Below, one piece after another: positions 4,405-61,295 of a stretch of 64,000 nt of DNA. The position numbers were made by a program, and so were the translations under genes. The stretch is from NCBI GenBank assembly GCA_000002445.1, contig AE017150.2, positions 896,001-960,000 on the forward strand, written 5' to 3'. The stretch comes from Trypanosoma brucei (Eukaryota). Under the pieces are notes generated by a model. It made no database searches. It saw only the letters and a list, made by a program, of their open reading frames with translations, and had not been told where the DNA came from. Every line of letters starts with the position of its first letter. Position 1 is the first letter of the stretch.

Positions 4405-4414
4405 GGGGGGGGGG
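4405..4414 (+). repeat. G10 homopolymer
   Basis: aaaatggggggggggcggcc seen directly. Confidence 0.95.
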
Positions 4415-16310: not shown

Positions 16311-16345
16311 TATTATTATTATTATTACTATTATTATTATTACTG
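16311..16345. repeat. (TTA)n microsatellite in the DnaJ downstream region
   Basis: tattattattattattactattattattattactg seen directly. Confidence 0.9.
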
Positions 16346-42171: not shown

Positions 42172-43190
42172 ATGTAGACTTACGCGATGTACCAAATGCA
42201 AAACTTCTTAGGAAAGGAGAAGAGCTGTGTAGAAATATATATATTTAGTTGTGATAGAAAAAGATGAAGAGTAGATCAGACTGCTAGTTTATTGTGTACC
42301 TCCGTGTTGTTGGTGTTTGTCTGATGTGGTTTCGTACTCCCCCCCCCCGTTTCCATCACTTTGAATGTTTATATTTGCATTTGAAACCCCTATAGTCGAT
42401 ACCCCGCCTCGCACGCACTGCAGTTTGCAATGTGAAGATGGAATGGACGATTGTATCAAACCCCTTTTTCTATTACTAATGGGTTTTGACATGTACACTA
42501 CCACAGCACGTGTGTTCTTGAACGATAGCATGTCACCCCACCTTCCTCCCTCCGCCTCTTCCCTGCTTGATGCTTCTTGTTTCACTTCATAGTAGTAGTA
42601 GTTTCTTACCTCTATGCTAGGTTGTGTTGTGCGCCTACACGCCTCTTGCCGCTGTGAAGCTCACCATACCACCAGCGGGTGTGAGACGGCAGTCGCCGCT
42701 AACCGGCCATTTGTCGCAATGTGGAGGGAAAGAAGTGGTTGTGGCAGCAGACTAGCGGGGGAGCGCATGCGGAATCAGTGGGAATGAACACTTTCCAATG
42801 CCGTTGCAACTATTTTACTGCTTCTTCCTGTATGCATATATATATATATAATTTTCTTCCTTCACTGTAGACGGATGTCTTTCATTGTCACGGTACTTTA
42901 AGTGACCAAACCAGACTATCTTACTGTTCCATGTTTCTCTGCTTCTGACATAGTACGGTAAATACTATAGTAAACGCTTTTTAGAGATACATAAAGGAGG
43001 GGGATAATAAAAGTGGCAAACGCAGCATAGATAGTATTTGGTTTATCGTTGGCAGCCGTTGAAGGGTGGGTGAGTTTTGAAGTGCCGTTACGTACACCGA
43101 CCGCGTAGCCTAGTACCTGGTTCATTTAAAGGAGGAAAAGGAGAACGGAAGTATTATTCATCCCATCTCCCCTCTCGTCAGCTCATTTCG

Positions 43191-45299
43191 ATGCGCGTTG
43201 TATACCAGCGTTTCTTCCCGGTGCTTCTTCTTTTACTCAGCCTTGAGCACCTCTGCAGCCGACATGCGTGCGCGGACGAAGGAGAGGAAGGAGGCGTGAA
43301 TCACACAGTGGGAGGCAACCTTACGGGCACGCATTCGTACCGTTCGCCATCTCTGCTTTCCATAGGCGATTCACTTGTCACCGTGTCCGAAACATGGGAT
43401 CCGTCGGACACGGAGCAGTACGTTGACGTGATTACCGAGTATAGCGCCCATTACGGGGCCCCGGCAGTAACACAGGTGGCGGTGCGTAACGATACGTTGG
43501 ATTTTCATGCTGTGTATAAGCATAAGGAGGACCGTGAAAGTACGATGCACCCCACCGCTGTTGCGATAGACGGAATGATATTTGTCCTTATATTTTGCAA
43601 AAATATAGGTGCCAGTGGCAACCAAACGGGAGACGCAGTGATCATGCCGCATGTAGCCAAGGGTGTGGTGTTACCAGGCGGCGCGACGGGCAACGTGTGG
43701 GTAAACTGGACGCAGCTGATGCCCATCAGATCACTGCTTCCCAAAGTTATCGAGGGGAAGAGAGTTAGTATGTTTTTTGGTGGCGGTGGGAATACTATTG
43801 TGATGACGAAGGGGACGCTTGTCATGCCTGTGCAAATGGTAAGAACGGACGATCAACGGTTCGCCACGATTATATACTCCTCAAACAACGGCACCAGCTG
43901 GACCGTTGCAAAAGGTTTCACGGATTCAGGGTGTAGGGAGTCCTCAGTTCTTATCTGGAAGCGTAAAATGCTTCTTGTTGCGCGGTCCGACGATGGTTAT
44001 ACTAAAGTGTTTGAATCGGACTACATGGGCGACGTATGGACGGAGTCCCTCGGGACAATATCTCGAGTATTAGGAAATTCACCCGATCGGAGAGGGCCTG
44101 GAAATCAGGGTAGTGCCATCACCATCCCTCTCGGAAACGAGACGGTTATGTTTTTCACTCAAACAACCGTATCCAATAGCTCTGACAGCAATGAGGGAGA
44201 CATTAATCGAATCGACCAGCGCATCTGGTTTAGCGATGGCAGCCGCATGGTTAAGGTCGGACACATTTACTGGAACGACCACTTATCAAGCAGCCGTAGT
44301 TATCTTTTGTACTCCAACAATAGGCTCTTGTGTGCCTACGAGATGGGTGCAGAGAAGGCGTATGCTATCACCGTCAGGAGCCTGGTTGGTGAATTGGAAA
44401 ATGCAAGATTTGCGCGAGAGACGTGGGCGAGACAGGATGCATATATCTCAGGTATATGCTCTTCAGCGAAGGAAAGCGCACCCTGTGCGAGCGGTGTTCC
44501 CGTAGATGGCCTTGTTGGGCTCCTTTCCAGCATGGTAAACGGGACTGCGTGGGTGGATGCTTATTTTTCTGTGAACGCTAACTTCGTTGGAGGTTTGGCC
44601 GGCCCTGCGGGTCTGACATTTGAAGGAACAGCACGCGGGGGTCGGTGGCCTGTTGGTGTGCAGGGGCAGAATCAACGATTTCACTTCGCCAACACTCATT
44701 TCACGCTGGTGCTGACACTGACAATTCATGAGCAAACTGCACCTAGAGCTCCAGTGCTTGTTACACGTCTTTACGAGAATGGGAGCTACATAGACTTGGA
44801 ATTCTCATACACAGATGACAAGAGATGGCATATAAAGTATGGTGCGGAATACGGCTCGACATCTGGGCAATGGGCGTTAAACCAAGAACACCAGTTAGCA
44901 TTTGTGCTCCGTGGTGGTACTATCGCTGTGTATCTCGACGGGAAACGTATGCCAACGATGGCAAGGATGTTAGCAGGAAACGGTAATCTGCTCAACATCA
45001 CCCATTTTTATATTGGTGGCTATGGCACGGTAAAGCAAAGCCCCAGAGACAGGTTAACCATACGAAACGCTATGCTGTACAACCGCCCATTGAAAAAGGC
45101 AGAGATCGACAAGTTGTTCGCAGCGAAAAGCGGGATAACCGCTGCAACAAAAGGCATAGAACCACTCACACCCAAGTGGAATCATAAAACCAAAGACCTT
45201 GAACCGCAGAGTGGTGATGGGCGCGCAGACCACGCGTTCCGTACCCCTTCATGGGCATTACCTTTGTTTGTTCTGCACTTATATTCCCTATTTATGTAA
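43191..45299 (+). CDS. trans-sialidase-like surface protein (predicted catalytically inactive family member) with N-terminal signal peptide and C-terminal hydrophobic GPI-type signal
   Basis: Signal peptide MRVVYQRFFPVLLLLLSLEHLCS. Degenerate Asp box SSNNGTSW. The family-defining VTVxNVxLYNR motif is present as LTIRNAMLYNRPL. A hydrophobic C-terminus (WALPLFVLHLYSLFM). No FRIP motif seen. Confidence 0.8.
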   Translation: MRVVYQRFFPVLLLLLSLEHLCSRHACADEGEEGGVNHTVGGNLTGTHSYRSPSLLSIGDSLVTVSETWDPSDTEQYVDVITEYSAHYGAPAVTQVAVRNDTLDFHAVYKHKEDRESTMHPTAVAIDGMIFVLIFCKNIGASGNQTGDAVIMPHVAKGVVLPGGATGNVWVNWTQLMPIRSLLPKVIEGKRVSMFFGGGGNTIVMTKGTLVMPVQMVRTDDQRFATIIYSSNNGTSWTVAKGFTDSGCRESSVLIWKRKMLLVARSDDGYTKVFESDYMGDVWTESLGTISRVLGNSPDRRGPGNQGSAITIPLGNETVMFFTQTTVSNSSDSNEGDINRIDQRIWFSDGSRMVKVGHIYWNDHLSSSRSYLLYSNNRLLCAYEMGAEKAYAITVRSLVGELENARFARETWARQDAYISGICSSAKESAPCASGVPVDGLVGLLSSMVNGTAWVDAYFSVNANFVGGLAGPAGLTFEGTARGGRWPVGVQGQNQRFHFANTHFTLVLTLTIHEQTAPRAPVLVTRLYENGSYIDLEFSYTDDKRWHIKYGAEYGSTSGQWALNQEHQLAFVLRGGTIAVYLDGKRMPTMARMLAGNGNLLNITHFYIGGYGTVKQSPRDRLTIRNAMLYNRPLKKAEIDKLFAAKSGITAATKGIEPLTPKWNHKTKDLEPQSGDGRADHAFRTPSWALPLFVLHLYSLFM

Positions 45300-46659: not shown

Positions 46660-47763
46660 ATGAGCATGGACACCCGTATGGTGAATTTTGGTTTTACGCG
46701 TGCTGCTCTCCTGTGCGGTCTTTTATTATTGCTAACTGCCGTGTGTCCGCTGCATGTGACTGCTGCTGATAATGGACGTGTGATCGTTAATGTTAAATCC
46801 TATTTTTCAATGGACAATTTTGCTTTTGCTCATCGAGGCAATTACTTCGTAAGCTACAAAAATGCTGCGGCATATTGTGGCGACAATGGTGCTGTGCTTC
46901 CTGCCGATCAAACGGAGGCGGCGCACCAAAGTTTGCAGAGCGCAATAAAGCGTGTAATTACGGGTTCGGATGCTTTCAGCTACCTTGGTGGAGATGCTGT
47001 GTACAGTAGTGGCGAAGCAATTGAAGCTGATAAGCGTTGTAAGCCTGGAGACGCGGCATCTTCCCGCTATTGTGTGTATCGTTGGAATAAGGGATTGTTT
47101 GCAAAGGCTTTGCCTGATGGTCAGGGGGTGGCGTTCTGGCGTGGTTCATATGTCAAATACGGTGGTGCGGCCTCAATGAATGGTTACCCATCCTTTTGGG
47201 GTAGTGAATATCCCAAGCGTGGTCAGTTGTATACCCTTTCATGGTATCATACAGGAGATGATGTGACTACCTGGTATGATGGAAAAGATATGTCAGGACG
47301 CATAAAGTGGGCGAGTGATAATCCCGATACAAAAACTGAAAACTACGTTATCTTATGTGAAGTCCACGATTCTATCAGCACGACGACAACCACAACAACT
47401 ACAACTACGACAACAACTACCACTACAACTACAGCTGCACCTGCCTCAGGCGAAGTACCGGAACCAACTGTGACAAAGGATGAAGAAGTTACTGTGACAA
47501 CTGTGTCATTGGAAGAGAGAAGTAATTGGCACATTATTCTCATAGCTCTAATTTCTGTTGTTTCCCTCATTGTGTTGCTACTTTTCCTTTTACGTTGGTT
47601 TTGTGATTATGATGTTAAAAAGGAGATCATTCCCATGACGCTGCGTGAAGTTGTTGGAGAGCCGTTGTTTGTCCTGGAGCCAACACCTTTTGTTCCCCCA
47701 GAGGGTTTTGCTGCTCCTCCCTTAGCCCTGCAATATTATAACCAAATGAGAACCAGTGAATAA
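46660..47763 (+). CDS. array copy 1: type I membrane protein with signal peptide, C-type-lectin-like domain, ~18-Thr stalk, TM helix and a 54-aa cytoplasmic tail
   Basis: MSMDTRMVNFGFTRAALLCGLLLLLTAVCPLHVTAAD (signal). CTLD-like blocks (A.YC..NGAVLPADQTEAAHQSL; AFSYLGGD; YCVYRWNKG; YPSFWGSEYP; YVILCEV; 4 Cys). Poly-Thr. TM segment WHIILIALISVVSLIVLLLFLL. Tail RWFCDYDVKKEIIPMTLREVVGEPLFVLEPTPFVPPEGFAAPPLALQYYNQMRTSE. Confidence 0.8.
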   Translation: MSMDTRMVNFGFTRAALLCGLLLLLTAVCPLHVTAADNGRVIVNVKSYFSMDNFAFAHRGNYFVSYKNAAAYCGDNGAVLPADQTEAAHQSLQSAIKRVITGSDAFSYLGGDAVYSSGEAIEADKRCKPGDAASSRYCVYRWNKGLFAKALPDGQGVAFWRGSYVKYGGAASMNGYPSFWGSEYPKRGQLYTLSWYHTGDDVTTWYDGKDMSGRIKWASDNPDTKTENYVILCEVHDSISTTTTTTTTTTTTTTTTTTAAPASGEVPEPTVTKDEEVTVTTVSLEERSNWHIILIALISVVSLIVLLLFLLRWFCDYDVKKEIIPMTLREVVGEPLFVLEPTPFVPPEGFAAPPLALQYYNQMRTSE

Positions 47764-48593
47764 TATTAGCGTCACATCGTGTATCACATGGGTGGTGGTT
47801 GAGTGATGTTTAGGATCAAGTGGGGTAATGAATACTGTACCGCTTTCATCCTACGTTACGGACCGTCACAATTTCTAGCTTCGTGTATTGTTTCACTTCC
47901 TATTATTACTTTCAGTAGTGCTCAATACTTCATTGTTTCATATAATTATTACTTTTATGTTCCTAATATTAACGGTCTCCTTGTACCATGTTGGCTCTGC
48001 GAGGGACTTCCGATGTGTGGCATCACTTCCCTCCGACCACATCATTGTTCTTTTAGTGTGTGACCCATTGAACCATCTTTACTGTTTGATGTCCCATTGT
48101 TTCGTTGTTGTTAGTGTTGATTATTTATTTCGTGTGTGGGTGTCATGTTTAGTTCGCGTTATTTCATGTTTTACTTCCATGTATATGTGGGAGGCTTGTA
48201 GGTCCTCCCTGTTACGTGTGATGTATTGCTATACGTGTAACTTGCAGCACTTAATTATTTTAAAAACCTGTACGACGCTGTGTTAAACGAGAGTTCCATA
48301 GTGTTCAATCCCTGCGTTATAGTTGGTCCATTATGATAATAAATGTTTTGAGTACCTGTGTCTCACTAACCAATTTGTTGGGATATGTGATATGGCTGCT
48401 CTCTTCCATTATTATTTGTGTTATCCTTTTCATATTTCTTGTTTATTATCCTCGAGTGTATGTGTGATTATTTGATATCTTGTGTAACTCCTTTTTCTAT
48501 TGTCACTGTTGCATTTCCCCTTTACTCACACGCTCTTCCCTCTTTCCCGCATATGTGTGTATTTGATAGACTCATAAGGAAGCAACACTGACA

Positions 48594-49691
48594 ATGAGCA
48601 TGGACACCCGTATGGTGAATTTTGGTTTTACGCGTGCTGCTCTCCTGTGCGGTCTTTTATTATTGCTAACTGCCGTGTGTCCGCTGCATGTGACTGCTGC
48701 TGATGGTGATAATGGACGTGTGATTGTTAATGTGAAGGAGTATTTCTCCATGCCTAATTATGCATTTATTCGAAGAAGAAAGTATATGGTTGATCACGAA
48801 AGCACCAATCGTTACTGCGTGTATTTTGGTGCCGAAGTTGCTGCCGATCAAACGGAGGCGGCACACCAAAGTTTGCAGGATGCTATGAAGCGTGTAATTA
48901 CGGGTTCGGATGCTTTCAGCTACCTTGGTGGAGATGCTGTGTACAGTAGTGGCGAAGCAATTGAAGCTGATAAGCGTTGTAAGCCTGGAGACGCGGCATC
49001 TTCCCGCTATTGTGTGTATCGTTGGAATAAGGGATTGTTTGCAAAGGCTTTGCCTGATGGTCACGGGGTGGCGTTCTGGCATGGTTCATATGTCAAATAC
49101 GACGGTGCGGCCTCAATGAATGGTTACCCATCCTTTTGGGGTAGTGAATATCCCAAGCGTGGTCAGTTGTATACCCTTTCATGGTATCATACAGGAGATA
49201 ATTCGACTACCTGGTATGATGCTGATGGGGTGTCAGGCACTATTCGTTGGACAAGTCGAAACTTTGACACGAAGTCTCAGGATTACGTTATTGTTTGTGA
49301 AGTTCAAAGATATGTTACTGTGGCAGCTGATAACTACACAACAACTACCACTACAACTACAGCTGCACCTGCCTCAGGCGAAGTACCGGAACCAACTGTA
49401 ACAAAGGATGAAGAAGTTACTGTGACAACTGTGTCATTGGAAGAGAGAAGTAATTGGCACATTATTCTCATAGCTCTAATTTCTGTTGTTTCCCTCATTG
49501 TGTTGCTGCTTTTCCTTTTACGTTGGTTCTGTGATTATGATGTTAAAAAGGAGATCATTCCCATGACGCTGCGTGAAGTTGTTGGAGAGCCGTTGTTTGT
49601 CCTGGAGCCAACACCTTTTGTTCCCCCAGAGGGTTTTGCTGCTCCTCCCTTAGCCCTGCAATATTATAACCAAATGAGAACCAGTGAATAA
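48594..49691 (+). CDS. array copy 2 (divergent patches 1 and 3; only 8 Thr in the stalk)
   Basis: Same conserved N- and C-termini. Its private patch 1 is KEYFSMPNYAFIRRRKYMVDHESTNRYCVYFGAEV. Patch 3 (GDNSTTWYDADGVSGTIRWTSRNFDTKSQDYV) is shared with copy 3. Confidence 0.8.
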   Translation: MSMDTRMVNFGFTRAALLCGLLLLLTAVCPLHVTAADGDNGRVIVNVKEYFSMPNYAFIRRRKYMVDHESTNRYCVYFGAEVAADQTEAAHQSLQDAMKRVITGSDAFSYLGGDAVYSSGEAIEADKRCKPGDAASSRYCVYRWNKGLFAKALPDGHGVAFWHGSYVKYDGAASMNGYPSFWGSEYPKRGQLYTLSWYHTGDNSTTWYDADGVSGTIRWTSRNFDTKSQDYVIVCEVQRYVTVAADNYTTTTTTTTAAPASGEVPEPTVTKDEEVTVTTVSLEERSNWHIILIALISVVSLIVLLLFLLRWFCDYDVKKEIIPMTLREVVGEPLFVLEPTPFVPPEGFAAPPLALQYYNQMRTSE

Positions 49692-50521
49692 TATTAGCGT
49701 CACATCGTGTATCACATGGGTGGTGGTTGAGTGATGTTTAGGATCAAGTGGAGTAATGAATACTGTACCGCTTTCATCCTACGTTACGGACCGTCACAAT
49801 TTCTAGCTTCGTGTATTGTTTCACTTCCTATTATTACTTTCAGTAGTGCTCAATACTTCATTGTTTCATATAATTATTACTTTTATGTTCCTAATATTAA
49901 CGGTCTCCTTGTACCATGTTGGCTCTGCGAGGGACTTCCGATGTGTGGCATCACTTCCCTCCGACCACATCATTGTTCTTTTAGTGTGTGACCCATTGAA
50001 CCATCTTTACTGTTTGATGTCCCATTGTTTCGTTGTTGTTAGTGTTGATTATTTATTTCGTGTGTGGGTGTCATGTTTAGTTCGCGTTATTTCATGTTTT
50101 ACTTCCATGTATATGTGGGAGGCTTGTAGGTCCTCCCTGTTACGTGTGATGTATTGCTATACGTGTAACTTGCAGCACTTAATTATTTTAATAGCTTATA
50201 TGAGGTTACATTAAACGAGAGTTCCATAGTGTTCGGTATCTGCGTTATAGTTCATCCATTATGATAATAAATGTTTTGAGTACCTGTGTCTCACTAACCA
50301 ATTTGTTGGGATATGTGATATGGCTGCTCTCTTCCATTATTATTTGTGTTATCCTTTTCATATTTCTTGTTTATTATCCTCGAGTGTATGTGTGATTATT
50401 TGATATCTTGTGTAACTCCTTTTTCTATTGTCACTGTTGCATTTCCCCTTTACTCACACGCTCTTCCCTCTTTCCCGCATATGTCTGTATTTGATAGACT
50501 CATAAGGAAGCAACACTGACA

Positions 50522-51610
50522 ATGAGCATGGACACCCGTATGGTGAATTTTGGTTTTACGCGTGCTGCTCTCCTGTGTGGTATTTTATTATTGCTAACTG
50601 CCGTGTGTCCGCTGCATGTGACTGCTGCTGATGGTGATGGACGCGTGATTGTTAATGTGAAGACGTATTTCTCTGTTCCCACATATGCGTTCATTAGGAA
50701 AGGTAGATATGCTGTTAATTACGAAAATGCTAATTATTATTGCGTCTTCTTTGGTGCTGTGCTTCCTGCCGATCAAACGGAGGCGGCGCACCAAAGTTTG
50801 CAGGATGCTATGAAGCGTGTAATTACGGGTTCGGATGCTTTCAGCTACCTTGGTGGAGATGCTGTGTACAGTAGTGGCGAAGCAATTGAAGCTGATAAGC
50901 GTTGTAAGCCTGGAGACATTGCATCTTCCCGCTATTGTGTGTATCGTTGGAATAAGGGATTGTTTGCAAAGGCTTTGCCTGATGGCTGGGGGGTGGCGTT
51001 CTGGCATGGTTCATATGTCAAATACGACGGTGCGGCCTCAATGAATGGTTACCCATCCTTTTGGGGTAGTGAATATCCCAAGCGTGGTCAGTTGTATACC
51101 CTTTCATGGTATCATACAGGAGATAATTCGACTACCTGGTATGATGCTGATGGGGTGTCAGGCACTATTCGTTGGACAAGTCGAAACTTTGACACGAAGT
51201 CTCAGGATTACGTAGTCACCTGTGAGGTTCAAACTGATATTATCACGACGACAACCACAACAACTACAACTACAACTACAGCTGCACCTGCCTCAGGCGA
51301 AGTACCGGAACCAACTGTGACAAAGGATGAAGAAGTTACCGTGACAACTGTGTCATTGGAAGAGAGAAGTAATTGGCACATTATTCTCATAGCTCTAATT
51401 TCTGTTGTTTCCCTTATTGTGTTGCTACTTTTCCTTTTACGTTGGTTCTGTGATTATGATGTTAAAAAGGAGATCATTCCCATGACGCTGCGTGAAGTTG
51501 TTGGAGAGCCGTTGTTTGTCCTGGAGCCAACACCTTTTGCTCCCCCAGAGGGTTTTGCTGCTCCTCCCTTAGCCCTGCAATATTATAACCAAATGAGAAC
51601 CAGTGAATAA
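50522..51610 (+). CDS. array copy 3
   Basis: Private patch 1 is KTYFSVPTYAFIRKGRYAVNYENANYYCVFFGAV. Patch 3 is shared with copy 2. The tail has a single V->A change (TPFAPPEG). Confidence 0.8.
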   Translation: MSMDTRMVNFGFTRAALLCGILLLLTAVCPLHVTAADGDGRVIVNVKTYFSVPTYAFIRKGRYAVNYENANYYCVFFGAVLPADQTEAAHQSLQDAMKRVITGSDAFSYLGGDAVYSSGEAIEADKRCKPGDIASSRYCVYRWNKGLFAKALPDGWGVAFWHGSYVKYDGAASMNGYPSFWGSEYPKRGQLYTLSWYHTGDNSTTWYDADGVSGTIRWTSRNFDTKSQDYVVTCEVQTDIITTTTTTTTTTTTAAPASGEVPEPTVTKDEEVTVTTVSLEERSNWHIILIALISVVSLIVLLLFLLRWFCDYDVKKEIIPMTLREVVGEPLFVLEPTPFAPPEGFAAPPLALQYYNQMRTSE

Positions 51611-52440
51611 TATTAGCGTCACATCGTGTATCACATGGGTGGTGGTTGAGTGATGTTTAGGATCAAGTGGAGTAATGAATACTGTACCGCTTTCATCCTA
51701 CGTTACGGACCGTCACAATTTCTAGCTTCGTGTATTGTTTCACTTCCTACTATTACTTTCAGTAGTGCTCAATACTTCATTGTTTCATATAATTATTACT
51801 TTTATGTTCCTAATATTAACGGTCTCCTTGTACCATGTTGGCTCTGCGAGGGACTTCCGATGTGTGGCATCACTTCCCTCCGACCACATCATTGTTCTTT
51901 TAGTGTGTGACCCATTGAACCATCTTTACTGTTTGATGTCCCATTGTTTCGTTGTTGTTAGTGTTGATTATTTATTTCGTGTGTGGGTGTCACGTTTAGT
52001 TCGCGTTACTTCATGTTTTACTTCCATGTATATGTGGGAGGCTTGTAGGTCCTCCCTGTTACGTGTGATGTATTGCTATACGTGTAACTTGCAGCACTTA
52101 ATTATTTTAAAAACCTGTACGACGCTGTGTTAAACGAGAGTTCCATAGTGTTCAATCCCTGCGTTATAGTTGGTCCATTATGATAATAAATGTTTTCAGT
52201 ACCTGTGTCTCACTAACCAATTTGTTGGGATATGTGATATGGCTGCTCTCTTCCATTATTATTTGTGTTATCCTTTTCATATTTCTTGTTTATTATCCTC
52301 GAGTGTATGTGTGATTATTTGATATCTTGTGTAACTCCTTTTTCTATTGTCACTGTTGCATTTCCCCTTTACTCACACGCTCTTCCCTCTTTCCCGCATA
52401 TGTGTGTATTTGATAGACTCATAAGGAAACAACACTGACA

Positions 52441-53535
52441 ATGAGCATGGACACCCGTATGGTGAATTTTGGTTTTACGCGTGCTGCTCTCCTGTGCGGT
52501 ATTTTATTATTGCTAACTGCCGTGTGTTCGCTGCATGTGACTGCTGCTGCTGATGGTGATGATGGACGCGTGATTGTTAATGTTAAATCCTATTTTTCGA
52601 TGGTGTACCGTGCTTTTTTCCGCAATAAAACTTACTTCGTTAGTTATGAAAACGCTGAAGCATATTGTGTTGAAAACGGTGCTGTGCTTCCTGCCGATCA
52701 AACGGAGGCGGCGCACCAAAGTTTGCAGGATGCAATGAAGCGTGTATACTCCATTTTTGTTGCTTTCAGCTACCTTGGTGGAGATGCTGTGTACAGTAGT
52801 AGCGGAGTAATTGAGTTTAATAAACGATGTAATGCTGGAGACATTGCATCTTCCCGCTATTGTGTGTATCGTTGGAATAAGGGATTGTTTGCAAAGGTTT
52901 TGCCTGATGGTCACGGGGTGGCGTTCTGGCATGGTTCATATGTCAAATACGACGGTGCGGCCTCAATGAATGGTTACCCATCTTTTTGGGGTAGTGAATA
53001 TCCCAAGCGTGGTCAGTTGTATACCCTTTCATGGTACCATGAACACGAAGATGTGACTACCTGGTATGATGCTGAAAGTGTAGCTGGACAGCTGGTGGCA
53101 GCAAGCAACAATCCCGAGACCACAAACAAGAACTACGTTATCTTATGTGAAGTCCATGATTCTATCAGCACGACGACAACCACAACAACTACCACTACAA
53201 CTACAGCTGCACCTGCCTCAGGCGAAGTGCCGGAACCAACTGTGACAAAGGATGAAGAAGTTACTGTGACAACTGTGTCATTGGAAGAGAGAAGTAATTG
53301 GCACATTATTCTCATAGCTCTAATTTCTGTTGTTTCCCTCATTGTGTTGCTACTTTTCCTTTTACGTTGGTTTTGTGATTATGATGTTAAAAAGGAGATC
53401 ATTCCCATGACGCTGCGTGAAGTTGTTGGAGAGCCGTTGTTTGTCCTGGAGCCAACACCTTTTGTTCCCCCAGAGGGTTTTGATGCTCCTCCCTTAGCCC
53501 TGCAATATTATAACCAAATGAGAACCAGTGAATAA
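52441..53535 (+). CDS. array copy 4 (the most divergent ectodomain)
   Basis: Its patch 1 is unique (KSYFSMVYRAFFRNKTYFVSYENAEAYCVENGAV). Its patch 2 is unique (KRVYSIFVAFSY...SSGVIEFNKRCNAGD). Its patch 3 is unique (EHEDVTTWYDAESVAGQLVAASNNPETTNKNYV). Confidence 0.8.
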   Translation: MSMDTRMVNFGFTRAALLCGILLLLTAVCSLHVTAAADGDDGRVIVNVKSYFSMVYRAFFRNKTYFVSYENAEAYCVENGAVLPADQTEAAHQSLQDAMKRVYSIFVAFSYLGGDAVYSSSGVIEFNKRCNAGDIASSRYCVYRWNKGLFAKVLPDGHGVAFWHGSYVKYDGAASMNGYPSFWGSEYPKRGQLYTLSWYHEHEDVTTWYDAESVAGQLVAASNNPETTNKNYVILCEVHDSISTTTTTTTTTTTTAAPASGEVPEPTVTKDEEVTVTTVSLEERSNWHIILIALISVVSLIVLLLFLLRWFCDYDVKKEIIPMTLREVVGEPLFVLEPTPFVPPEGFDAPPLALQYYNQMRTSE

Positions 53536-54365
53536 TATTAGCGTCACATCGTGTATCACATGGGTGGTGGTTGAGTGATGTTTAGGATCAAGTGGAGTAA
53601 TGAATACTGTACCGCTTTCATCCTACGTTACGGACCGTCACAATTTCTAGCTTCGTGTATTGTTTCACTTCCTACTATTACTTTCAGTAGTGCTCAATAC
53701 TTCATTGTTTCATATAATTATTACTTTTATGTTCCTAATATTAACGGTCTCCTTGTACCATGTTGGCTCTGCGAGGGACTTCCGATGTGTGGCATCACTT
53801 CCCTCCGACCACATCATTGTTCTTTTAGTGTGTGACCCATTGAACCATCTTTACTGTTTGATGTCCCATTGTTTCGTTGTTGTTAGTGTTGATTATTTAT
53901 TTCGTGTGTGGGTGTCATGTTTAGTTCGCGTTATTTCATGTTTTACTTCCATGTATATGTGGGAGGCTTGTAGGTCCTCCCTGTTACGTGTGATGTATTG
54001 CTATACGTGTAACTTGCAGCACTTAATTATTTTAATAGCTTATATGAGGTTACATTAAACGAGAGTTCCATAGTGTTCAATCCCTGCGTTATAGTTCATC
54101 CATTATGATAATAAATGTTTTGAGTACCTGTGTCTCACTAACCAATTTGTTGGGATATGTGATATGGCTGCTCTCTTCCATTATTATTTGTGTTATCCTT
54201 TTCATATTTCTTGTTTATTATCCTCGAGTGTATGTGTGATTATTTGATATCTTGTGTAACTCCTTTTTCTATTGTCACTGTTGCATTTCCCCTTTACTCA
54301 CACGCTCTTCCCTCTTTCCCGCATATGTGTGTATTTGATAGACTCATAAGGAAACAACACTGACA

Positions 54366-55475
54366 ATGAGCATGGACACCCGTATGGTGAATTTTGGTTT
54401 TACGCGTGCTGCTCTCCTGTGCGGTATTTTATTATTGCTAACTGCCGTGTGTTCGCTGCATGTGACTGCTGCTGATGGTGATGATGGACGCGTGATTGTT
54501 AATGTGAAGGAGTATTTCTCCATGCCTAATCGTGCATTTATTCGTGATGGGGAGTACCATGTAAGTTACTACAATGCTAACGCATATTGTGTCGACAATG
54601 GTGCTGTGCTTCCTGCCGATCAAACGGAGGCGGCACACCAAAGTTTGCAGGATGCAATGAAGCGTGTAACTAATTCTTTTGTTGCTTTCAGCTACCTTGG
54701 TGGAGATGCTGTGTACAGTAGTGGCGGAGTAATTGAAGCTGATAAGCGTTGTAAGCCTGGAGACATTGCATCTTCACGCTATTGTGTGTACCGTTGGAAT
54801 AAGGGATTGTTTGCAAAGGCTTTGCCTGATGGCTGGGGGGTGGCGTTCTGGCATGGTTCATATGTCAAATACGGTGGTGCGGCCTCAATGAATGGTTACC
54901 CATCCTTTTGGGGTAGTGAATATCCCAAGCGTGGTCAGTTGTATACCCTTTCATGGTATCATAAAGATTATGATGTGACTACCTGGTATGATGGAAAAGA
55001 TATGTCAGGACGCATAAAGTGGACGAGTAAAAACACTGCTACAAGAACCGAAAACTACGTTATCTTATGTGAAGTCCACGATTCTATCAGCACGACGACA
55101 ACCACAACAACTACAACTACGACAACAACTACCACTACAACTACAGCTGCACCTGCCTCAGGCGAAGTGCCGGAACCAACTGTGACAAAGGATGAAGAAG
55201 TTACTGTGACAACTGTGTCATTGGAAGAGAGAAGTAATTGGCACATTATTCTCATAGCTCTAATTTCTGTTGTTTCCCTCATTGTGTTGCTGCTTTTCCT
55301 TTTACGTTGGTTTTGTGATTATGATGTTAAAAAGGAGATCATTCCCATGACGCTGCGTGAAGTTGTTGGAGAGCCGTTGTTTGTCCTGGAGCCAACACCT
55401 TTTGTTCCCCCAGAGGGTTTTGCTGCTCCTCCCTTAGCCCTGCAATATTATAACCAAATGAGAACCAGTGAATAA
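54366..55475 (+). CDS. array copy 5
   Basis: Patch 1 is KEYFSMPNRAFIRDGEYHVSYYNANAYCVDNGAV, shared with copies 6 and 8. Patch 2 is private (KRVTNSFVAFSY). Patch 3 is KDYDVTTWYDGKDMSGRIKWTSKNTATRTENYV. Confidence 0.8.
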   Translation: MSMDTRMVNFGFTRAALLCGILLLLTAVCSLHVTAADGDDGRVIVNVKEYFSMPNRAFIRDGEYHVSYYNANAYCVDNGAVLPADQTEAAHQSLQDAMKRVTNSFVAFSYLGGDAVYSSGGVIEADKRCKPGDIASSRYCVYRWNKGLFAKALPDGWGVAFWHGSYVKYGGAASMNGYPSFWGSEYPKRGQLYTLSWYHKDYDVTTWYDGKDMSGRIKWTSKNTATRTENYVILCEVHDSISTTTTTTTTTTTTTTTTTTAAPASGEVPEPTVTKDEEVTVTTVSLEERSNWHIILIALISVVSLIVLLLFLLRWFCDYDVKKEIIPMTLREVVGEPLFVLEPTPFVPPEGFAAPPLALQYYNQMRTSE

Positions 55476-56305
55476 TATTAGCGTCACATCGTGTATCACA
55501 TGGGTGGTGGTTGAGTGATGTTTAGGATCAAGTGGAGTAATGAATACTGTACCGCTTTCATCCTACGTTACGGACCGTCACAATTTCTAGCTTCGTGTAT
55601 TGTTTCACTTCCTATTATTACTTTCAGTAGTGCTCAATACTTCATTGTTTCATATAATTATTACTTTTATGTTCCTAATATTAACGGTCTCCTTGTACCA
55701 TGTTGGCTCTGCGAGGGACTTCCGATGTGTGGCATCACTTCCCTCCGACCACATCATTGTTCTTTTAGTGTGTGACCCATTGAACCATCTTTACTGTTTG
55801 ATGTCCCATTGTTTCGTTGTTGTTAGTGTTGATTATTTATTTCGTGTGTGGGTGTCATGTTTAGTTCGCGTTATTTCATGTTTTACTTCCATGTATATGT
55901 GGGAGGCTTGTAGGTCCTCCCTGTTACGTGTGATGTATTGCTATACGTGTAACTTGCAGCACTTAATTATTTTAATAGCTTATATGAGGTTACATTAAAC
56001 GAGAGTTCCATAGTGTTCAATCCCTGCGTTATAGTTCATCCATTATGATAATAAATGTTTTGAGTACCTGTGTCTCACTAACCAATTTGTTGGGATATGT
56101 GATATGGCTGCTCTCTTCCATTATTATTTGTGTTATCCTTTTCATATTTCTTGTTTATTATCCTCGAGTGTATGTGTGATTATTTGATATCTTGTGTAAC
56201 TCCTTTTTCTATTGTCACTGTTGCATTTCCCCTTTACTCACACGCTCTTCCCTCTTTCCCGCATATGTGTGTATTTGATAGACTCATAAGGAAACAACAC
56301 TGACA

Positions 56306-57415
56306 ATGAGCATGGACACCCGTATGGTGAATTTTGGTTTTACGCGTGCTGCTCTCCTGTGCGGTATTTTATTATTGCTAACTGCCGTGTGTTCGCTGCA
56401 TGTGACTGCTGCTGATGGTGATGATGGACGCGTGATTGTTAATGTGAAGGAGTATTTCTCCATGCCTAATCGTGCATTTATTCGTGATGGGGAGTACCAT
56501 GTAAGTTACTACAATGCTAACGCATATTGTGTCGACAATGGTGCTGTGCTTCCTGCCGATCAAACGGAGGCGGCGCACCAAATTTTGCAGGATGCTATGA
56601 AGCGTGTAATTGCGGCTTCGGATGCTTTCAGCTACCTTGGTGGAGATGCTGTGTACAGTAGTGGCGGGGCCATTGTGGCTAATAAGCGTTGTAAGCCTGG
56701 AGACATTGCATCTTCACGCTATTGTGTGTATCGTTGGAATAAGGGATTGTTTGCAAAGGCTTTGCCTGATGGCTGGGGGGTGGCGTTCTGGCATGGTTCA
56801 TATGTCAAATACGGTGGTGCGGCCTCAATGAATGGTTACCCATCCTTTTGGGGTAGTGAATATCCCAAGCATGGTCAGTTGTATACCCTTTCATGGTATC
56901 ATAAAGATTATGATGTGACTACCTGGTATGATGGAAAAGATATGTCAGGACGCATAAAGGGGACGAGTAAAAACCCTGCCACAAAGACTGAAAACTACGT
57001 TATCTTATGTGAAGTCCACGATTCTATCAGCACGACGACAACCACAACAACTACAACTACGACAACAACTACCACTACAACTACAGCTGCACCTGCCTCA
57101 GGCGAAGTACCGGAACCAACTGTGACAAAGGATGAAGAAGTTACCGTGACAACTGTGTCATTGGAAGAGAGAAGTAATTGGCACATTATTCTCATAGCTC
57201 TAATTTCTGTTGTTTCCCTTATTGCGTTGCTACTTTTCCTTTTACGTTGGTTTTGTGATTATGATGTTAAAAAGGAGATCATTCCCATGACGCTGCGTGA
57301 AGTTGTTGGAGAGCCGTTGTTTGTCCTGGAGCCAACACCTTTTGTTCCCCCAGAGGGTTTTGCTGCTCCTCCCTTAGCCCTGCAATATTATAACCAAATG
57401 AGAACCAGTGAATAA
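56306..57415 (+). CDS. array copy 6
   Basis: Patch 1 is shared with copies 5 and 8. Patch 2 (ILQDAMKRVIAASDA...GGAIVANKRC) is shared with copy 7. Patch 3 (KGTSKNPATKTENYV) is shared with copy 7. Confidence 0.8.
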   Translation: MSMDTRMVNFGFTRAALLCGILLLLTAVCSLHVTAADGDDGRVIVNVKEYFSMPNRAFIRDGEYHVSYYNANAYCVDNGAVLPADQTEAAHQILQDAMKRVIAASDAFSYLGGDAVYSSGGAIVANKRCKPGDIASSRYCVYRWNKGLFAKALPDGWGVAFWHGSYVKYGGAASMNGYPSFWGSEYPKHGQLYTLSWYHKDYDVTTWYDGKDMSGRIKGTSKNPATKTENYVILCEVHDSISTTTTTTTTTTTTTTTTTTAAPASGEVPEPTVTKDEEVTVTTVSLEERSNWHIILIALISVVSLIALLLFLLRWFCDYDVKKEIIPMTLREVVGEPLFVLEPTPFVPPEGFAAPPLALQYYNQMRTSE

Positions 57416-58245: not shown

Positions 58246-59355
58246 ATGAGCATGGACACCCGTATGGTGAATTTTGGTTTTACGCGTGCTGCTCTCCTGT
58301 GCGGTCTTTTATTATTGCTAACTGCCGTGTGTCCGCTGCATGTGACTGCTGCTGATGGTGATGATGGACGCGTGATTGTAAATATCAATACTATAATTTC
58401 TATGGTCAATCGTGCATTTATTCGTGATGGGGAGTACCATGTAAGTTACTACAATGCTAACGCATATTGTGTCGACAATGGTGCTGTGCTTCCTGCCGAT
58501 CAAACGGAGGCGGCGCACCAAATTTTGCAGGATGCAATGAAGCGTGTAACTGCGGCTTCGGATGCTTTCAGCTACCTTGGTGGAGATGCTGTGTACAGTA
58601 GTGGCGGGGCCATTGTGGCTAATAAGCGTTGTAAGCCTGGAGACATTGCATCTTCACGCTATTGTGTGTACCGTTGGAATAAGGGATTGTTTGCAAAGGC
58701 TTTGCCTGATGGTCACGGGGTGGCGTTCTGGCATGGTTCATATGTCAAATACATTTTTGCAGGCCCAATGAATGGTTACCCATCCTTTTGGGGTGGCGAA
58801 CATCCCAAGCGTGGTCAGTTGTATACCCTTTCATGGTATCATAAAGATTATGATGTGACTACCTGGTATGATGGAAAAGATATGTCAGGACGCATAAAGG
58901 GGACGAGTAAAAACCCTGCCACAAAGACTGAAAACTACGTTATCTTATGTGAAGTCCACGATTCTATCAGCACGACGACAACCACAACAACTACAACTAC
59001 GACAACAACTACCACTACAACTACAGCTGCACCTGCCTCAGGCGAAGTACCGGAACCAACTGTGACAAAGGATGAAGAAGTTACTGTGACAACTGTGTCA
59101 TTGGAAGAGAGAAGTAATTGGCACATTATTCTCATAGCTCTAATTTCTGTTGTTTCCCTTATTGTGTTGCTACTTTTCCTTTTACGTTGGTTCTGTGATT
59201 ATGATGTTAAAAAGGAGATCATTCCCATGACGCTGCGTGAAGTTGTTGGAGAGCCGTTGTTTGTCCTGGAGCCAACACCTTTTGTTCCCCCAGAGGGTTT
59301 TGCTGCTCCTCCCTTAGCCCTGCAATATTATAACCAAATGAGAACCAGTGAATAA
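58246..59355 (+). CDS. array copy 7 (carries private substitution clusters)
   Basis: Private NINTIISMVN at the start of the ectodomain. Private KYIFAGPMNG and WGGEHP in the otherwise invariant core. Patches 2 and 3 are shared with copy 6. Confidence 0.8.
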   Translation: MSMDTRMVNFGFTRAALLCGLLLLLTAVCPLHVTAADGDDGRVIVNINTIISMVNRAFIRDGEYHVSYYNANAYCVDNGAVLPADQTEAAHQILQDAMKRVTAASDAFSYLGGDAVYSSGGAIVANKRCKPGDIASSRYCVYRWNKGLFAKALPDGHGVAFWHGSYVKYIFAGPMNGYPSFWGGEHPKRGQLYTLSWYHKDYDVTTWYDGKDMSGRIKGTSKNPATKTENYVILCEVHDSISTTTTTTTTTTTTTTTTTTAAPASGEVPEPTVTKDEEVTVTTVSLEERSNWHIILIALISVVSLIVLLLFLLRWFCDYDVKKEIIPMTLREVVGEPLFVLEPTPFVPPEGFAAPPLALQYYNQMRTSE

Positions 59356-60185: not shown

Positions 60186-61295
60186 ATGAGCATGGACACC
60201 CGTATGGTGAATTTTGGTTTTACGCGTGCTGCTCTCCTGTGCGGTATTTTATTATTGCTAACTGCCGTGTGTCCGCTGCATGTGACTGCTGCTGATGGTG
60301 ATGATGGACGCGTGATTGTTAATGTGAAGGAGTATTTCTCCATGCCTAATCGTGCATTTATTCGTGATGGGGAGTACCATGTAAGTTACTACAATGCTAA
60401 CGCATATTGTGTCGACAATGGTGCTGTGCTTCCTGCCGATCAAACGGAGGCGGCGCACCAAAGTTTGCAGAGCGCAATAAAGCGTGTAATTACGGGTTCG
60501 GATGCTTTCAGCTACCTTGGTGGAGATGCTGTGTACAGTAGTGGCGGAGTAATTGAAGCTGATAAGCGTTGTAAGCCTGGAGACGCGGCATCTTCCCGCT
60601 ATTGTGTGTATCGTTGGAATAAGGGATTGTTTGCAAAGGCTTTGCCTGATGGCTGGGGGGTGGCGTTCTGGCGTGGTTCATATGTCAAATACGGTGGTGC
60701 GGCCTCAATGAATGGTTACCCATCCTTTTGGGGTAGTGAATATCCCAAGCGTGGTCAGTTGTATACCCTTTCATGGTATCATAAAGATTATGATGTGACT
60801 ACCTGGTATGATGGAAAAGATATGTCGGGACGCATAAAGTGGGCGAGTGATAATCCCGATACAAAAACTGAAAACTACGTTATCTTATGTGAAGTCCACG
60901 ATTCTATCAGCACGACGACAACCACAACAACTACAACTACGACAACAACTACAACTACAACTACAGCTGCACCTGCCTCAGGCGAAGTACCGGAACCAAC
61001 TGTGACAAAGGATGAAGAAGTTACTGTGACAACTGTGTCATTGGAAGAGAGAAGTAATTGGCACATTATTCTCATAGCTCTAATTTCTGTTGTTTCCCTT
61101 ATTGTGTTGCTACTTTTCCTTTTACGTTGGTTCTGTGATTATGATGTTAAAAAGGAGATCATTCCCATGACGCTGCGTGAAGTTGTTGGAGAGCCGTTGT
61201 TTGTCCTGGAGCCAACACCTTTTGTTCCCCCAGAGGGTTTTGCTGCTCCTCCCTTAGCCCTGCAATATTATAACCAAATGAGAACCAGTGAATAA
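60186..61295 (+). CDS. array copy 8 (a mosaic of copy 5/6-type patch 1 with copy 1-type patches 2 and 3)
   Basis: Patch 1 equals copies 5/6. SLQSAIKRVITGSDA, AFWRGSYVKYGG and KWASDNPDTKTENYV equal copy 1. Confidence 0.8.
   Translation: MSMDTRMVNFGFTRAALLCGILLLLTAVCPLHVTAADGDDGRVIVNVKEYFSMPNRAFIRDGEYHVSYYNANAYCVDNGAVLPADQTEAAHQSLQSAIKRVITGSDAFSYLGGDAVYSSGGVIEADKRCKPGDAASSRYCVYRWNKGLFAKALPDGWGVAFWRGSYVKYGGAASMNGYPSFWGSEYPKRGQLYTLSWYHKDYDVTTWYDGKDMSGRIKWASDNPDTKTENYVILCEVHDSISTTTTTTTTTTTTTTTTTTAAPASGEVPEPTVTKDEEVTVTTVSLEERSNWHIILIALISVVSLIVLLLFLLRWFCDYDVKKEIIPMTLREVVGEPLFVLEPTPFVPPEGFAAPPLALQYYNQMRTSE

What the first reader, a model, noticed from the sequence alone, without database searches (positions are those of the whole stretch)
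47380..47440. Thr-stalk length polymorphism (8 to ~18 Thr) encoded by mixed ACN codons
The poly-Thr stalk is encoded by an irregular mixture of acg/aca/acc/act codons (e.g. acgacgacaaccacaacaactacaactacgacaacaactaccactacaactaca), not by a pure trinucleotide microsatellite. Its length varies: ~18 in copies 1, 5, 6, 7 and 8; ~12-13 in copies 3 and 4; 8 in copy 2. The flanking AAPASGEVPEPTVTKDEEVTVTTVSLEE is invariant. This suggests selection for a Thr-rich O-glycosylated spacer whose length, and hence lectin-head projection distance, is modulated by slippage or unequal exchange.
Basis: seen in the sequence. Interest (0 to 1): 0.5.

Follow-up and report, generated by a model that had tools for sequence, protein, structure and literature searches.

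The report
Variable poly-threonine linker in trypanosome IGP40 genes
The variable run of 8-18 threonines is real, but it is the already published "polythreonine" linker of the Trypanosoma brucei IGP40 lectin-like membrane proteins, and its length changes look like ordinary repeat slippage rather than a tuned feature.

Summary
The window is T. brucei TREU927 chromosome 2. The feature lies in the 8-copy tandem array of IGP40 genes (Tb927.2.5290-5360). These are type I membrane proteins with a C-type-lectin-like ectodomain (Pfam PF16825).

The Thr runs are 18, 8, 12, 12, 18, 18, 18 and 18, all encoded by mixed ACN codons, and the flank AAPASGEVPEPTVTKDEEVTVTTVSLEE is invariant.

The tract is a cryptic repeat with periods of 6, 12, 18 and 24 bp. 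Every shorter allele equals an 18-codon allele minus one in-frame block of 6, 18, 24 or 30 bp; the 18- and 24-bp blocks are flanked by 8-17 bp direct repeats. An independent T. b. equiperdum assembly has six copies with 10, 16, 8, 10, 10 and 11 Thr, and every matched copy differs in length from its TREU927 counterpart.

The tract sits where a divergent ectodomain, shared across strains, gives way to a 3' block homogenised by gene conversion.

The feature is published. Naguleswaran et al. 2021 describe "6-18 polythreonine residues ... likely O-glycosylated". Allison et al. 2014 found IGP40 in the ER, running at its predicted mass. O-glycosylation remains untested, and I found no evidence for adaptive length tuning: whole linkers differ by only 48-54 residues. 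Verdict: already known, low interest.

The parts
46660..47763 (+). IGP40 copy 1 (367 aa; by gene order Tb927.2.5290): signal peptide, C-type-lectin-like domain, Thr tract, acidic juxtamembrane segment, TM helix, cytoplasmic tail
   Evidence: ORF. PF16825 hit, E 5.4e-85, residues 62-234.
47380..47433 (+). Poly-Thr tract of copy 1: 18 mixed ACN codons. This is the finding.
47434..47526 (+). Invariant acidic/Pro juxtamembrane segment AAPASGEVPEPTVTKDEEVTVTTVSLEERSN of copy 1. It forms the rest of the disordered linker.
   Evidence: The equivalent residues in copy 5 have pLDDT below 50.
47527..47598 (+). Transmembrane helix of copy 1 (WHIILIALISVVSLIVLLLFLLRW)
   Evidence: Hydropathy scan. AF2 helix at 292-316 in copy 5.
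48594..49691 (+). IGP40 copy 2 (365 aa), identical to XP_951702.1 of T. b. brucei TREU927. The Thr tract is 49338-49361 (8 codons) and is preceded by the divergent QRYVTVAADNY, which contains an NYT sequon.
50522..51610 (+). IGP40 copy 3 (362 aa). Thr tract 51245-51280 (12 codons).
52441..53535 (+). IGP40 copy 4 (364 aa). Thr tract 53170-53205 (12 codons).
54366..55475 (+). IGP40 copy 5 (369 aa; by gene order Tb927.2.5330, the gene tagged by Allison et al.). Thr tract 55092-55145 (18 codons).
56306..57415 (+). IGP40 copy 6 (369 aa). Thr tract 57032-57085 (18 codons).
58246..59355 (+). IGP40 copy 7 (369 aa). Thr tract 58972-59025 (18 codons).
60186..61295 (+). IGP40 copy 8 (369 aa). Thr tract 60912-60965 (18 codons; codon 14 is ACA instead of ACC).

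Best explanation
The tract is the first part of a disordered linker of about 50 residues, rich in Thr, Pro and Glu. The linker joins the C-type-lectin-like ectodomain of IGP40 type I membrane proteins to their transmembrane helix.

At the DNA level the tract is a cryptic, imperfect repeat with units of 6, 18 and 24 bp. It gains or loses whole in-frame blocks by replication slippage or by misaligned gene conversion between short direct repeats.

The tract lies at the 5' edge of the part of each 1.93-kb unit that gene conversion keeps nearly identical within a genome. New lengths are therefore spread or erased along the array, giving a mode of 18 in TREU927 and 10 in T. b. equiperdum.

Selection keeps the reading frame and the Thr composition, but length is only loosely constrained (6-18), so most of the length polymorphism is probably neutral.

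Shown here: the anatomy, the indel structure, the between-strain variation, the change of evolutionary regime at the tract, and the fold. Inferred: slippage as the actual mutational event, neutrality of length, and selection for Thr.
For: Family and published biology
- Each copy matches PF16825 'IGP family C-type lectin domain' with 264-284 bits against a cut-off of 22.6.
- Copy 2 is identical to XP_951702.1 of TREU927 chr 2.
- The locus tags and published biology come from PMC4497807, PMC3998935 and PMC8483307.

Structure
- AF2 with a 25-sequence alignment gives a confident ectodomain, pLDDT below 50 for 242-289, and a TM helix at 292-316.
- The Foldseek PDB top 50 are C-type lectin CRDs, with E about 1e-4 and TM-score normalised to target length of 0.5-0.65.

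Repeat structure and indels
- TRF finds periods of 6, 12, 18 and 24 bp in the tract.
- Each shorter allele in TREU927 and T. b. equiperdum equals an 18-codon allele minus one contiguous block of 6, 18, 24 or 30 bp with 0 mismatches. The 18- and 24-bp blocks are flanked by 8-17 bp direct repeats.

Between-strain variation
- Matched copies differ in every case: w1/e1 18 vs 10, w2/e2 8 vs 16, w4/e3 12 vs 8, w6/e4 18 vs 10, w5/e5 18 vs 10, w8/e6 18 vs 11.

Change of evolutionary regime at the tract
- Within TREU927, variable columns are confined to the ectodomain codons. From the tract through the 3' UTR and most of the intergenic spacer the copies are nearly identical; one variable patch lies at alignment columns about 1561-1680.
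- The ectodomain has pS 0.24 and pN 0.115. The post-tract region has pS 0.034 and pN 0.003.
- Upstream of the tract, 5 of the 6 equiperdum copies have a TREU927 copy as nearest neighbour (150 shared polymorphic columns, 1 fixed difference). In the coding region downstream, all six have a paralogue of their own genome as nearest neighbour.
- Jackson et al. reported recombination in this array (PHI p<0.001; PMC2854126).

Family-wide pattern
- The CLEC-to-TM linker ranges from 18 to 288 residues. It is usually Thr/Pro/Ser-rich or made of N-glycan sequon repeats.
Against: - Neutrality of length is inferred, not tested. No population sample or function assay was available.
- The T. b. equiperdum assembly is long-read based (from my own knowledge, not checked here), and several of its six copies are interrupted by frameshifts. 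Some of its lengths could be errors, although all six tracts are whole-codon variants.
- The coincidence of the regime switch with the tract could also mean that the tract itself influences recombination (rival 3).
- Conservation of Thr richness across species hints at a specific role, such as glycosylation, that a 'mere linker' reading does not explain.
Confidence: 0.7

Rival explanations
1. Mucin-like O-glycosylated stalk whose length is adaptively tuned. This is the first reader's view, and for the glycosylation part also the view of Naguleswaran et al. 2021. Thr residues would be O-glycosylated, stiffening and extending the stalk. Slippage would generate paralogues that hold the lectin head at different heights.
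For: [quoted passage not shown] Its mRNA peaks in tsetse salivary-gland epimastigotes (PMC8483307; PMC3998935).
- The acceptor peptide of the T. cruzi pp-alpha-GlcNAc transferase is KPPTTTTTTTTKPP, a T8 run (PMC3769586).
- T. brucei has an orphan GT60 homologue, TbOGNT1, with no known substrate (PMC9472816).
- Five of the eight copies have no N-glycan sequon.
- Thr richness is conserved at this position in T. congolense, T. vivax and T. rangeli.
Against: [quoted passage not shown]
- IGP40-HA in bloodstream forms co-localises with BiP and runs at about its predicted mass, with a half-life of about 30 min.
- Whole linkers differ by only 48-54 residues within the array.
- Lengths differ between matched copies of two strains with no relation to ectodomain type.
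- The Pfam Mucin model scores 18.7 bits against a cut-off of 34.7.
Confidence: 0.15
2. Assembly artefact: the different lengths come from collapse or expansion of a repetitive array, not from real copies.
For: - The array is 8 units of 1.93 kb, and copies 5-7 are very similar.
- The T. b. gambiense assembly breaks at a 100-N gap here.
- Copy number is reported as 8 in T. b. brucei against 24 in T. b. gambiense.
Against: - Each tract is only 24-54 bp and lies directly next to the copy-specific hypervariable ectodomain patch (codons about 200-240). A single read therefore links a length to a copy.
- All variants are in-frame whole blocks.
- Independent assemblies of other subspecies also show several lengths.
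- The range of 6-18 was reported independently.
Confidence: 0.03
3. The tract is a recombination boundary. The low-complexity ACN repeat would start or stop gene-conversion tracts. This would uncouple an ectodomain that keeps old alleles from an anchor, tail and UTR block that evolves in concert. Length change would be a by-product of misaligned conversion.
For: The switch from orthologue-like to concerted behaviour falls exactly at the tract. The modal tract length is genome-specific (18 vs 10), like the downstream block.
Against: - The 5' limit of the divergent region, at the end of the signal peptide around codon 36, has no comparable repeat. Selection that retains ectodomain diversity can set both limits.
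- High divergence in the ectodomain would by itself block conversion, as argued in PMC1855330.
- No breakpoint mapping was done here.
Confidence: 0.12

Closest known systems
T. brucei IGP40 subfamily of invariant glycoproteins (Allison et al. 2014, PMC4497807). This is the same family as the 'polythreonine' transmembrane proteins Tb927.2.4760/4920/5290-5360 (Naguleswaran et al. 2021, PMC8483307).
   Same: It is the same locus and the same genes: a PF16825 domain, type I topology, an 8-copy array on chr 2, and a stretch of 6-18 Thr already described and predicted to be O-glycosylated.
   Different: Nothing essential differs. Added here are the codon-level indel anatomy, the copy-by-copy comparison between strains, the position of the tract at the concerted/non-concerted boundary, and the link between the two papers. 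The 2021 paper calls the family novel and does not use the IGP name.
T. cruzi TcMUC mucins (T8KP2 repeats carrying GlcNAc-alpha-1-O-Thr)
   Same: Both have homopolymeric Thr runs of about 8 or more in a secretory-pathway protein of a trypanosome. A T8 peptide is the standard acceptor of the GT60 transferase.
   Different: IGP40 has a TM helix and a cytoplasmic tail rather than a GPI anchor. It has a single run rather than KPP-spaced tandem repeats, and a folded lectin-like head. The Pfam Mucin hit is below threshold. No O-glycans of this kind are known in T. brucei.
Repeat linkers of other IGP family members: IGP48 DENTTV repeats, T. congolense (NATDEEQ)n and (TTTTTPAP)n, and the T. vivax Thr/Ser-rich 132-residue linker
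   Same: They occupy the same position, directly after the CEV motif that ends the lectin-like domain and before the TM helix. They share the same tendency to repeat expansion and length variation.
   Different: The repeat units and chemistry differ: N-glycan sequons in some, a pure Thr run here. IGP48 repeats were proposed to drive oligomerisation, which is not plausible for a Thr homopolymer.
Stalked C-type lectin receptors with length-polymorphic necks, such as the 23-residue neck repeats of DC-SIGN/L-SIGN (my own knowledge), and ERGIC-53 (the comparison made in PMC4497807)
   Same: All have a lectin-like head on a spacer, followed by a TM helix and a short tail. The spacer is encoded by repeats and varies in copy number.
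   Different: Those necks are helical coiled-coil repeats that control oligomerisation. The IGP40 tract is a short disordered homopolymer. There is no sequence relationship.
Coding microsatellites and bacterial-type contingency loci
   Same: Length changes by slippage in a short-period repeat inside a surface or secretory protein gene, and lengths differ between strains.
   Different: The repeat is imperfect with mixed codons. All changes are in-frame, so there is no on/off switching.

Membership tests
IGP family (Pfam PF16825 / DUF5075), IGP40 subfamily | Match to the PF16825 'IGP family C-type lectin domain' above the gathering score | tested here: met
   283.8 bits (copy 1) and 263.6 bits (copy 2) against a cut-off of 22.6, covering the full profile 1-173.
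IGP family (Pfam PF16825 / DUF5075), IGP40 subfamily | Type I topology: N-terminal signal peptide, one TM helix, short cytoplasmic tail | tested here: met
   Hydrophobic N-terminal helix 12-29 and TM helix 292-316 in the AF2 model. The hydropathy scan finds one TMD after the linker. No dedicated signal-peptide predictor was run.
IGP family (Pfam PF16825 / DUF5075), IGP40 subfamily | Identity with the T. brucei chr 2 genes Tb927.2.5290-5360 (IGP40 representative Tb927.2.5330) | tested here: met
   Copy 2 is identical to XP_951702.1 on the 1,193,948-bp TREU927 contig. Eight tandem copies match the eight locus tags listed in PMC3998935 and PMC8483307. Assigning a tag to each copy is inferred from gene order.
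IGP family (Pfam PF16825 / DUF5075), IGP40 subfamily | ER localisation and glycoprotein nature | not testable with these tools
   ER localisation is from the literature only. Copies 1, 5, 6, 7 and 8 have no NxS/T sequon, and glycosidase experiments were done on IGP48 only.
C-type lectin-like domain (CTLD) fold | Structural similarity to solved C-type lectin CRDs | tested here: met
   Foldseek against the PDB: the top 50 hits are MBP-A, SP-A, SP-D, CL-K1, tetranectin, CD23, dectin-2 and similar, with E 1e-4 to 3e-3 and target-normalised TM 0.5-0.65. The model's ectodomain has pLDDT about 90.
C-type lectin-like domain (CTLD) fold | Ca2+/sugar-binding motifs EPN or QPD together with WND, which define a functional C-type lectin | tested here: not met
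   No EPN, QPD or WND occurs in any copy. EYP (EHP in copy 7) and WYD are present; P187, W207 and D209 are conserved family-wide. A structure-based alignment of these positions was not made.
Trypanosome mucins (TcMUC-type, Pfam PF01456) | Match to the Mucin-like glycoprotein profile above the gathering score | tested here: not met
   18.7 bits against a cut-off of 34.7.
Trypanosome mucins (TcMUC-type, Pfam PF01456) | GPI anchor signal at the C-terminus | tested here: not met
   The TM helix is followed by a conserved tail of about 55 residues.
Trypanosome mucins (TcMUC-type, Pfam PF01456) | Thr-linked O-glycans | not testable with these tools
   Only a published NetOGlyc prediction exists. [quoted passage not shown]
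Slippage-prone coding repeat (microsatellite-like) | Short-period tandem repeat structure | tested here: met
   TRF finds periods of 6, 12, 18 and 24 bp with 78-94% matches. The repeat is imperfect.
Slippage-prone coding repeat (microsatellite-like) | Alleles differ by whole repeat blocks bounded by direct repeats, and vary between strains | tested here: met
   Single-block deletions of 6, 18, 24 or 30 bp with 0 mismatches; the 18- and 24-bp blocks have 8-17 bp flanking repeats. All six matched copies differ between TREU927 and T. b. equiperdum.

The most novel reading that the evidence does not exclude
The IGP40 Thr runs are the natural acceptors of the orphan GT60 enzyme TbOGNT1 in tsetse salivary-gland epimastigotes. 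That would make IGP40 the first mucin-type (GlcNAc-alpha-O-Thr) glycoprotein of African trypanosomes. Tract length (6-18) would set the glycan load per paralogue, and the glycans might be substrates of the trans-sialidase encoded immediately upstream. The ER location and unshifted mass seen in bloodstream forms would then reflect expression in the wrong life-cycle stage.
Probability: 0.15. Interest if true: 0.6.

Novelty: already known. Interest (0 to 1): 0.2.

Why it matters
If the Thr runs are glycosylated in the fly stages, T. brucei would have a mucin-type O-glycosylation pathway that glycobiologists currently say has not been found. The orphan GT60 transferase would also gain a substrate. 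That idea is already in print as a prediction.

The length polymorphism itself adds little. It is the behaviour expected of a cryptic coding repeat inside a tandem array that undergoes gene conversion.

This analysis is useful in three ways. It links two papers that describe the same genes under different names. It shows that the stalk-length differences are small at the level of the whole linker. It also documents a clean example of a gene whose two halves evolve under different regimes, with old alleles kept in the ectodomain and concerted evolution downstream.

Tried and rejected
- AF2 with the first 12-sequence alignment gave a useless model (pLDDT 35.5). The 25-sequence alignment worked.
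- A profile search of PDB sequences found nothing relevant. Only the fold comparison showed the lectin fold.
- The word-indexed homologue searches returned only 5-7 proteins. The exhaustive representative search was needed to reach IGP34/48-type proteins and the T. cruzi, T. rangeli, T. grayi and T. theileri members.
- Exact look-ups of seven of the eight window proteins, and of the contigs encoding P0003 and P0009, found nothing. The TREU927 array could therefore not be compared with a second TREU927 assembly.
- The T. b. gambiense locus that was retrieved is a dispersed copy next to a 100-N gap, not the array.
- I first thought that the ACC/ACA site combined with the 12/18 length states required recurrent indels (a four-gamete argument). 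The script showed that copy 3 can also be derived from the copy-1 allele with 0 mismatches, so I dropped that argument.
- Rfam and tRNA scans of the whole window found nothing.
- No follow-up paper on the polythreonine family was found in the library.
Full report
**What the window is.** The window carries plus-strand genes from about 5.9 kb onward. These include RPAP3-like, DnaJ, aldo-keto reductase, Prp19, tubulin-tyrosine ligase, a 4246-aa dynein heavy chain and a trans-sialidase. They are followed by eight tandem ORFs of 362-369 aa, spaced 1919-1940 bp apart, at 46660-61295. Copy 2 is residue-for-residue XP_951702.1 of Trypanosoma brucei brucei TREU927, on the 1,193,948-bp chromosome 2 record. 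Published tables list the family as Tb927.2.4760.4920 and the eight tandem genes .5290-.5360 (PMC3998935; PMC8483307). Each copy matches Pfam PF16825, 'IGP family C-type lectin domain', at 264-284 bits against a cut-off of 22.6. This is the IGP40 subfamily of Allison et al. 2014 (PMC4497807).

**Check of the observation.** The quoted 54-nt string is at 47380-47433 and encodes 18 Thr. The eight copies have 18, 8, 12, 12, 18, 18, 18 and 18 Thr, always encoded by a mixture of ACG, ACA, ACC and ACT. The segment AAPASGEVPEPTVTKDEEVTVTTVSLEE follows unchanged in all eight proteins. Thr makes up 5-7% of the remaining residues, so such runs are not chance. The tract is not a pure trinucleotide repeat, but it is not irregular either. 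TRF reports imperfect periods of 6 (ACAACT), 12, 18 (94% matches) and 24 bp. ACA and ACT are over-used relative to neighbouring genes. No other Thr run of this kind exists in the window.

**Anatomy of the protein.** With a 25-sequence alignment, AlphaFold2 models residues 45-240 of copy 5 at pLDDT of about 90. Residues 242-289, which comprise the Thr run and the acidic segment, fall below 50. Residues 292-316 form a helix, and the tail is disordered. Foldseek against the PDB returns only C-type lectin carbohydrate-recognition domains among the top 50 hits, including mannose-binding protein, SP-A/SP-D, CL-K1, tetranectin, CD23 and dectin-2. E-values are around 1e-4 and target-normalised TM-scores are 0.5-0.65. 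The head is therefore C-type-lectin-like in fold. The EPN/QPD and WND motifs that bind Ca2+ and sugar are absent; EYP and WYD stand in roughly corresponding places. The Thr run starts four to five residues after the last strand (YVILCE) and is the first third of a 48-54 residue linker to the membrane.

**How the lengths differ.** A script tested whether each shorter allele can be made from an 18-codon allele by one contiguous deletion.
- The two 12-codon alleles equal the copy-1 or copy-8 allele minus 18 bp, flanked by 11-17 bp direct repeats.
- The 10-codon allele of T. b. equiperdum equals the copy-1 allele minus 24 bp, with an 8-bp repeat.
- The 16-codon allele is the copy-1 allele minus 6 bp.
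- The 8-codon alleles are minus 30 bp.

All fit with zero mismatches and all are in frame. The direction (deletion or duplication) cannot be told. This is the pattern expected from replication slippage or misaligned exchange between short direct repeats.

In copy 2 the short run is preceded by a divergent, six-residue-longer stretch (QRYVTVAADNY instead of HDSIS). Its whole linker is therefore 50 residues, against 54 for the 18-Thr copies and 48 for the 12-Thr copies.

**Independent assemblies.**
- T. b. equiperdum OVI (GCA_003543875.1, locus L001) has the same trans-sialidase followed by six array copies with 10, 16, 8, 10, 10 and 11 Thr. Several of these copies are interrupted by frameshifts.
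- Two T. b. gambiense proteins have 10 Thr. A dispersed TREU927 paralogue has 6.
- I matched copies by their ectodomain DNA. Every pair differs in tract length: 18/10, 8/16, 12/8, 18/10, 18/10 and 18/11.

An artefact is also unlikely because each tract abuts the copy-specific hypervariable patch within the span of a single read.

**Evolutionary setting.** Within TREU927 almost all variable alignment columns fall in the ectodomain codons, roughly 40-245. From the Thr tract through the rest of the CDS, the 3' UTR and most of the spacer the units are nearly identical, apart from one variable patch at alignment columns about 1561-1680.
- The ectodomain has pS 0.24 and pN 0.115, with patches reaching pS 0.44-0.59.
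- The region downstream of the tract has pS 0.034 and pN 0.003.
- Between strains, 5 of the 6 equiperdum ectodomains are closest to a TREU927 copy (150 shared polymorphic columns, 1 fixed difference).
- In the coding region downstream of the tract, all six equiperdum copies are closest to their own paralogues. For example, all TREU927 copies read CDYDVKK, and all equiperdum and gambiense copies read CDYNVKK.

The tract thus sits at the junction between old alleles that are retained and a block homogenised by gene conversion. Its modal length (18 vs 10) behaves like the homogenised block. Recombination in this array was reported before (PMC1855330; PMC2854126, PHI p<0.001).

**Family context.** The exhaustive search found 32 relatives, named via cluster look-up. 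Directly after the conserved CEV motif, many carry Thr-rich stretches.
- T. congolense TCIL3000_2_1410 has (TTTTTPAP)-like repeats: a 75-residue linker that is 43% Thr.
- T. vivax KAH8616529.1 has a T10 run in a 132-residue linker that is 35% Thr.
- T. rangeli has T5-T6 runs, and T. cruzi has STTTLPPT.
- Others carry N-glycan sequon repeats at the same position, such as IGP48-type ENTT repeats and T. congolense (NATDEEQ)n with 37 sequons.

Linker length ranges from 18 to 288 residues. A repeat-prone, Thr-rich linker of variable length is therefore a family trait, and the onset 'D-x-I-S-T-T-T' is shared across Trypanosoma.

**What is already published.** Naguleswaran et al. [quoted passage not shown] They specify 'a stretch of 6-18 polythreonine residues' (NetOGlyc-4.0) and list these locus tags. 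They report peak mRNA in salivary glands, mainly in BARP-positive epimastigotes, and suggest mucin-like modification and roles in adhesion or gamete interaction. Telleria et al. 2014 saw 4-10-fold higher expression in salivary-gland stages. Both the observation and the O-glycosylation idea are therefore in the literature. The 2021 paper does not use the IGP name. Its remark that the T. congolense and T. vivax relatives have smaller Thr stretches 'if any' holds for homopolymer length but not for the total Thr-rich linker.

**Is the stalk O-glycosylated?** This is unresolved.

In favour:
- The published NetOGlyc prediction.
- The T. cruzi GT60 transferase uses a T8 peptide as acceptor.
- T. brucei keeps an orphan GT60 gene, TbOGNT1.
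- Five of the eight copies have no N-glycan sequon.

Against:
- IGP40-HA (Tb927.2.5330) in bloodstream forms co-localises with BiP, runs at about its predicted mass, and turns over in about 30 min.

Those experiments used ectopic, tagged protein in a stage where the family and TbOGNT1 are weakly expressed. They do not settle the fly stages.

**Verdict.** The tract is a spacer, the slippage-type mechanism fits, and Thr composition looks conserved. O-glycosylation is untested, and the evidence does not support adaptive tuning of the lectin head's projection distance. The most economical account is a disordered Thr-rich linker. Its cryptic repeat changes length by slippage or misaligned conversion, the changes are propagated by concerted evolution, and length is loosely constrained. 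The feature is already known, and interest is low. The residual value lies in the testable link to the orphan TbOGNT1.

Noticed in passing
window 3091-3513 and 4634-5056: A perfect 423-nt inverted repeat (100% complementary, 1120-nt spacer). It sits where ORF orientation and GC skew flip, that is, at a divergent strand-switch region. The spacer contains a C12 run (about 3849-3862) and a G9 run (about 4404-4413). I found no convincing ORF, no tRNA and no Rfam match.
   Followed up: partly
window 46660-61295 vs L001 4257-14913: The two halves of each IGP40 unit evolve differently. Ectodomain alleles are shared across T. brucei subspecies (150 shared polymorphic columns, 1 fixed difference). Everything downstream of the Thr tract evolves in concert within each genome. 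The synonymous divergence in the ectodomain patches (pS up to 0.59) points to old alleles rather than recent positive selection (pN/pS 0.48).
   Followed up: yes
window copies 1, 5, 6, 7, 8 (46660-47763, 54366-61295): Five of the eight 'invariant glycoprotein' copies have no NxS/T sequon at all. Copy 2 has N203 and an NYT sequon directly at the start of its Thr run, copy 3 has N202, and copy 4 has N62. The published N-glycosidase experiments were done on IGP48 only.
   Followed up: partly
window 43077-45299: A trans-sialidase gene (PF13859 and PF22925) lies immediately upstream of the array of Thr-tract proteins, and the order is the same in T. b. equiperdum (L001 783-2891). In T. cruzi, trans-sialidase acts on mucin O-glycans. 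In a polycistronic genome this adjacency may mean nothing.
   Followed up: no
L001 4257-7261 and around 12634: Several of the six T. b. equiperdum array copies are interrupted by frameshifts: copy 1 stops after 262 aa, copy 2 lacks its 5' part, and copy 5 has no long ORF. These are either sequencing indel errors or real pseudogenes.
   Followed up: no
L002 11918-12142: In T. b. gambiense DAL972, a 41-aa IGP40 N-terminal fragment is followed by a 100-N gap. The array, reported as 24 copies in that subspecies, is collapsed in the assembly.
   Followed up: no
window 16311-16345: A trinucleotide microsatellite of about 11 units, read as poly-Leu or poly-Tyr depending on frame, lies in the spacer between the DnaJ and aldo-keto reductase genes.
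   Followed up: no
literature (PMC8483307 vs PMC4497807): The 2021 'novel polythreonine family' and the 2014 'IGP40' are the same genes, but the later paper does not mention IGP. One paper proposes a surface or adhesion role in epimastigotes and the other an ER-resident role in bloodstream forms. The two views have not been reconciled.
   Followed up: partly
window 47803-48285 and the equivalent position in each unit (for example 61335-61785): A 160-aa ORF (MMFRIKWSNEYCTAF...) recurs just downstream of each IGP40 stop codon. It is intact in the T. b. equiperdum units (L001 5375-5857 and others) but broken in window copy 8. It is probably a chance ORF in the conserved 3' UTR.
   Followed up: no
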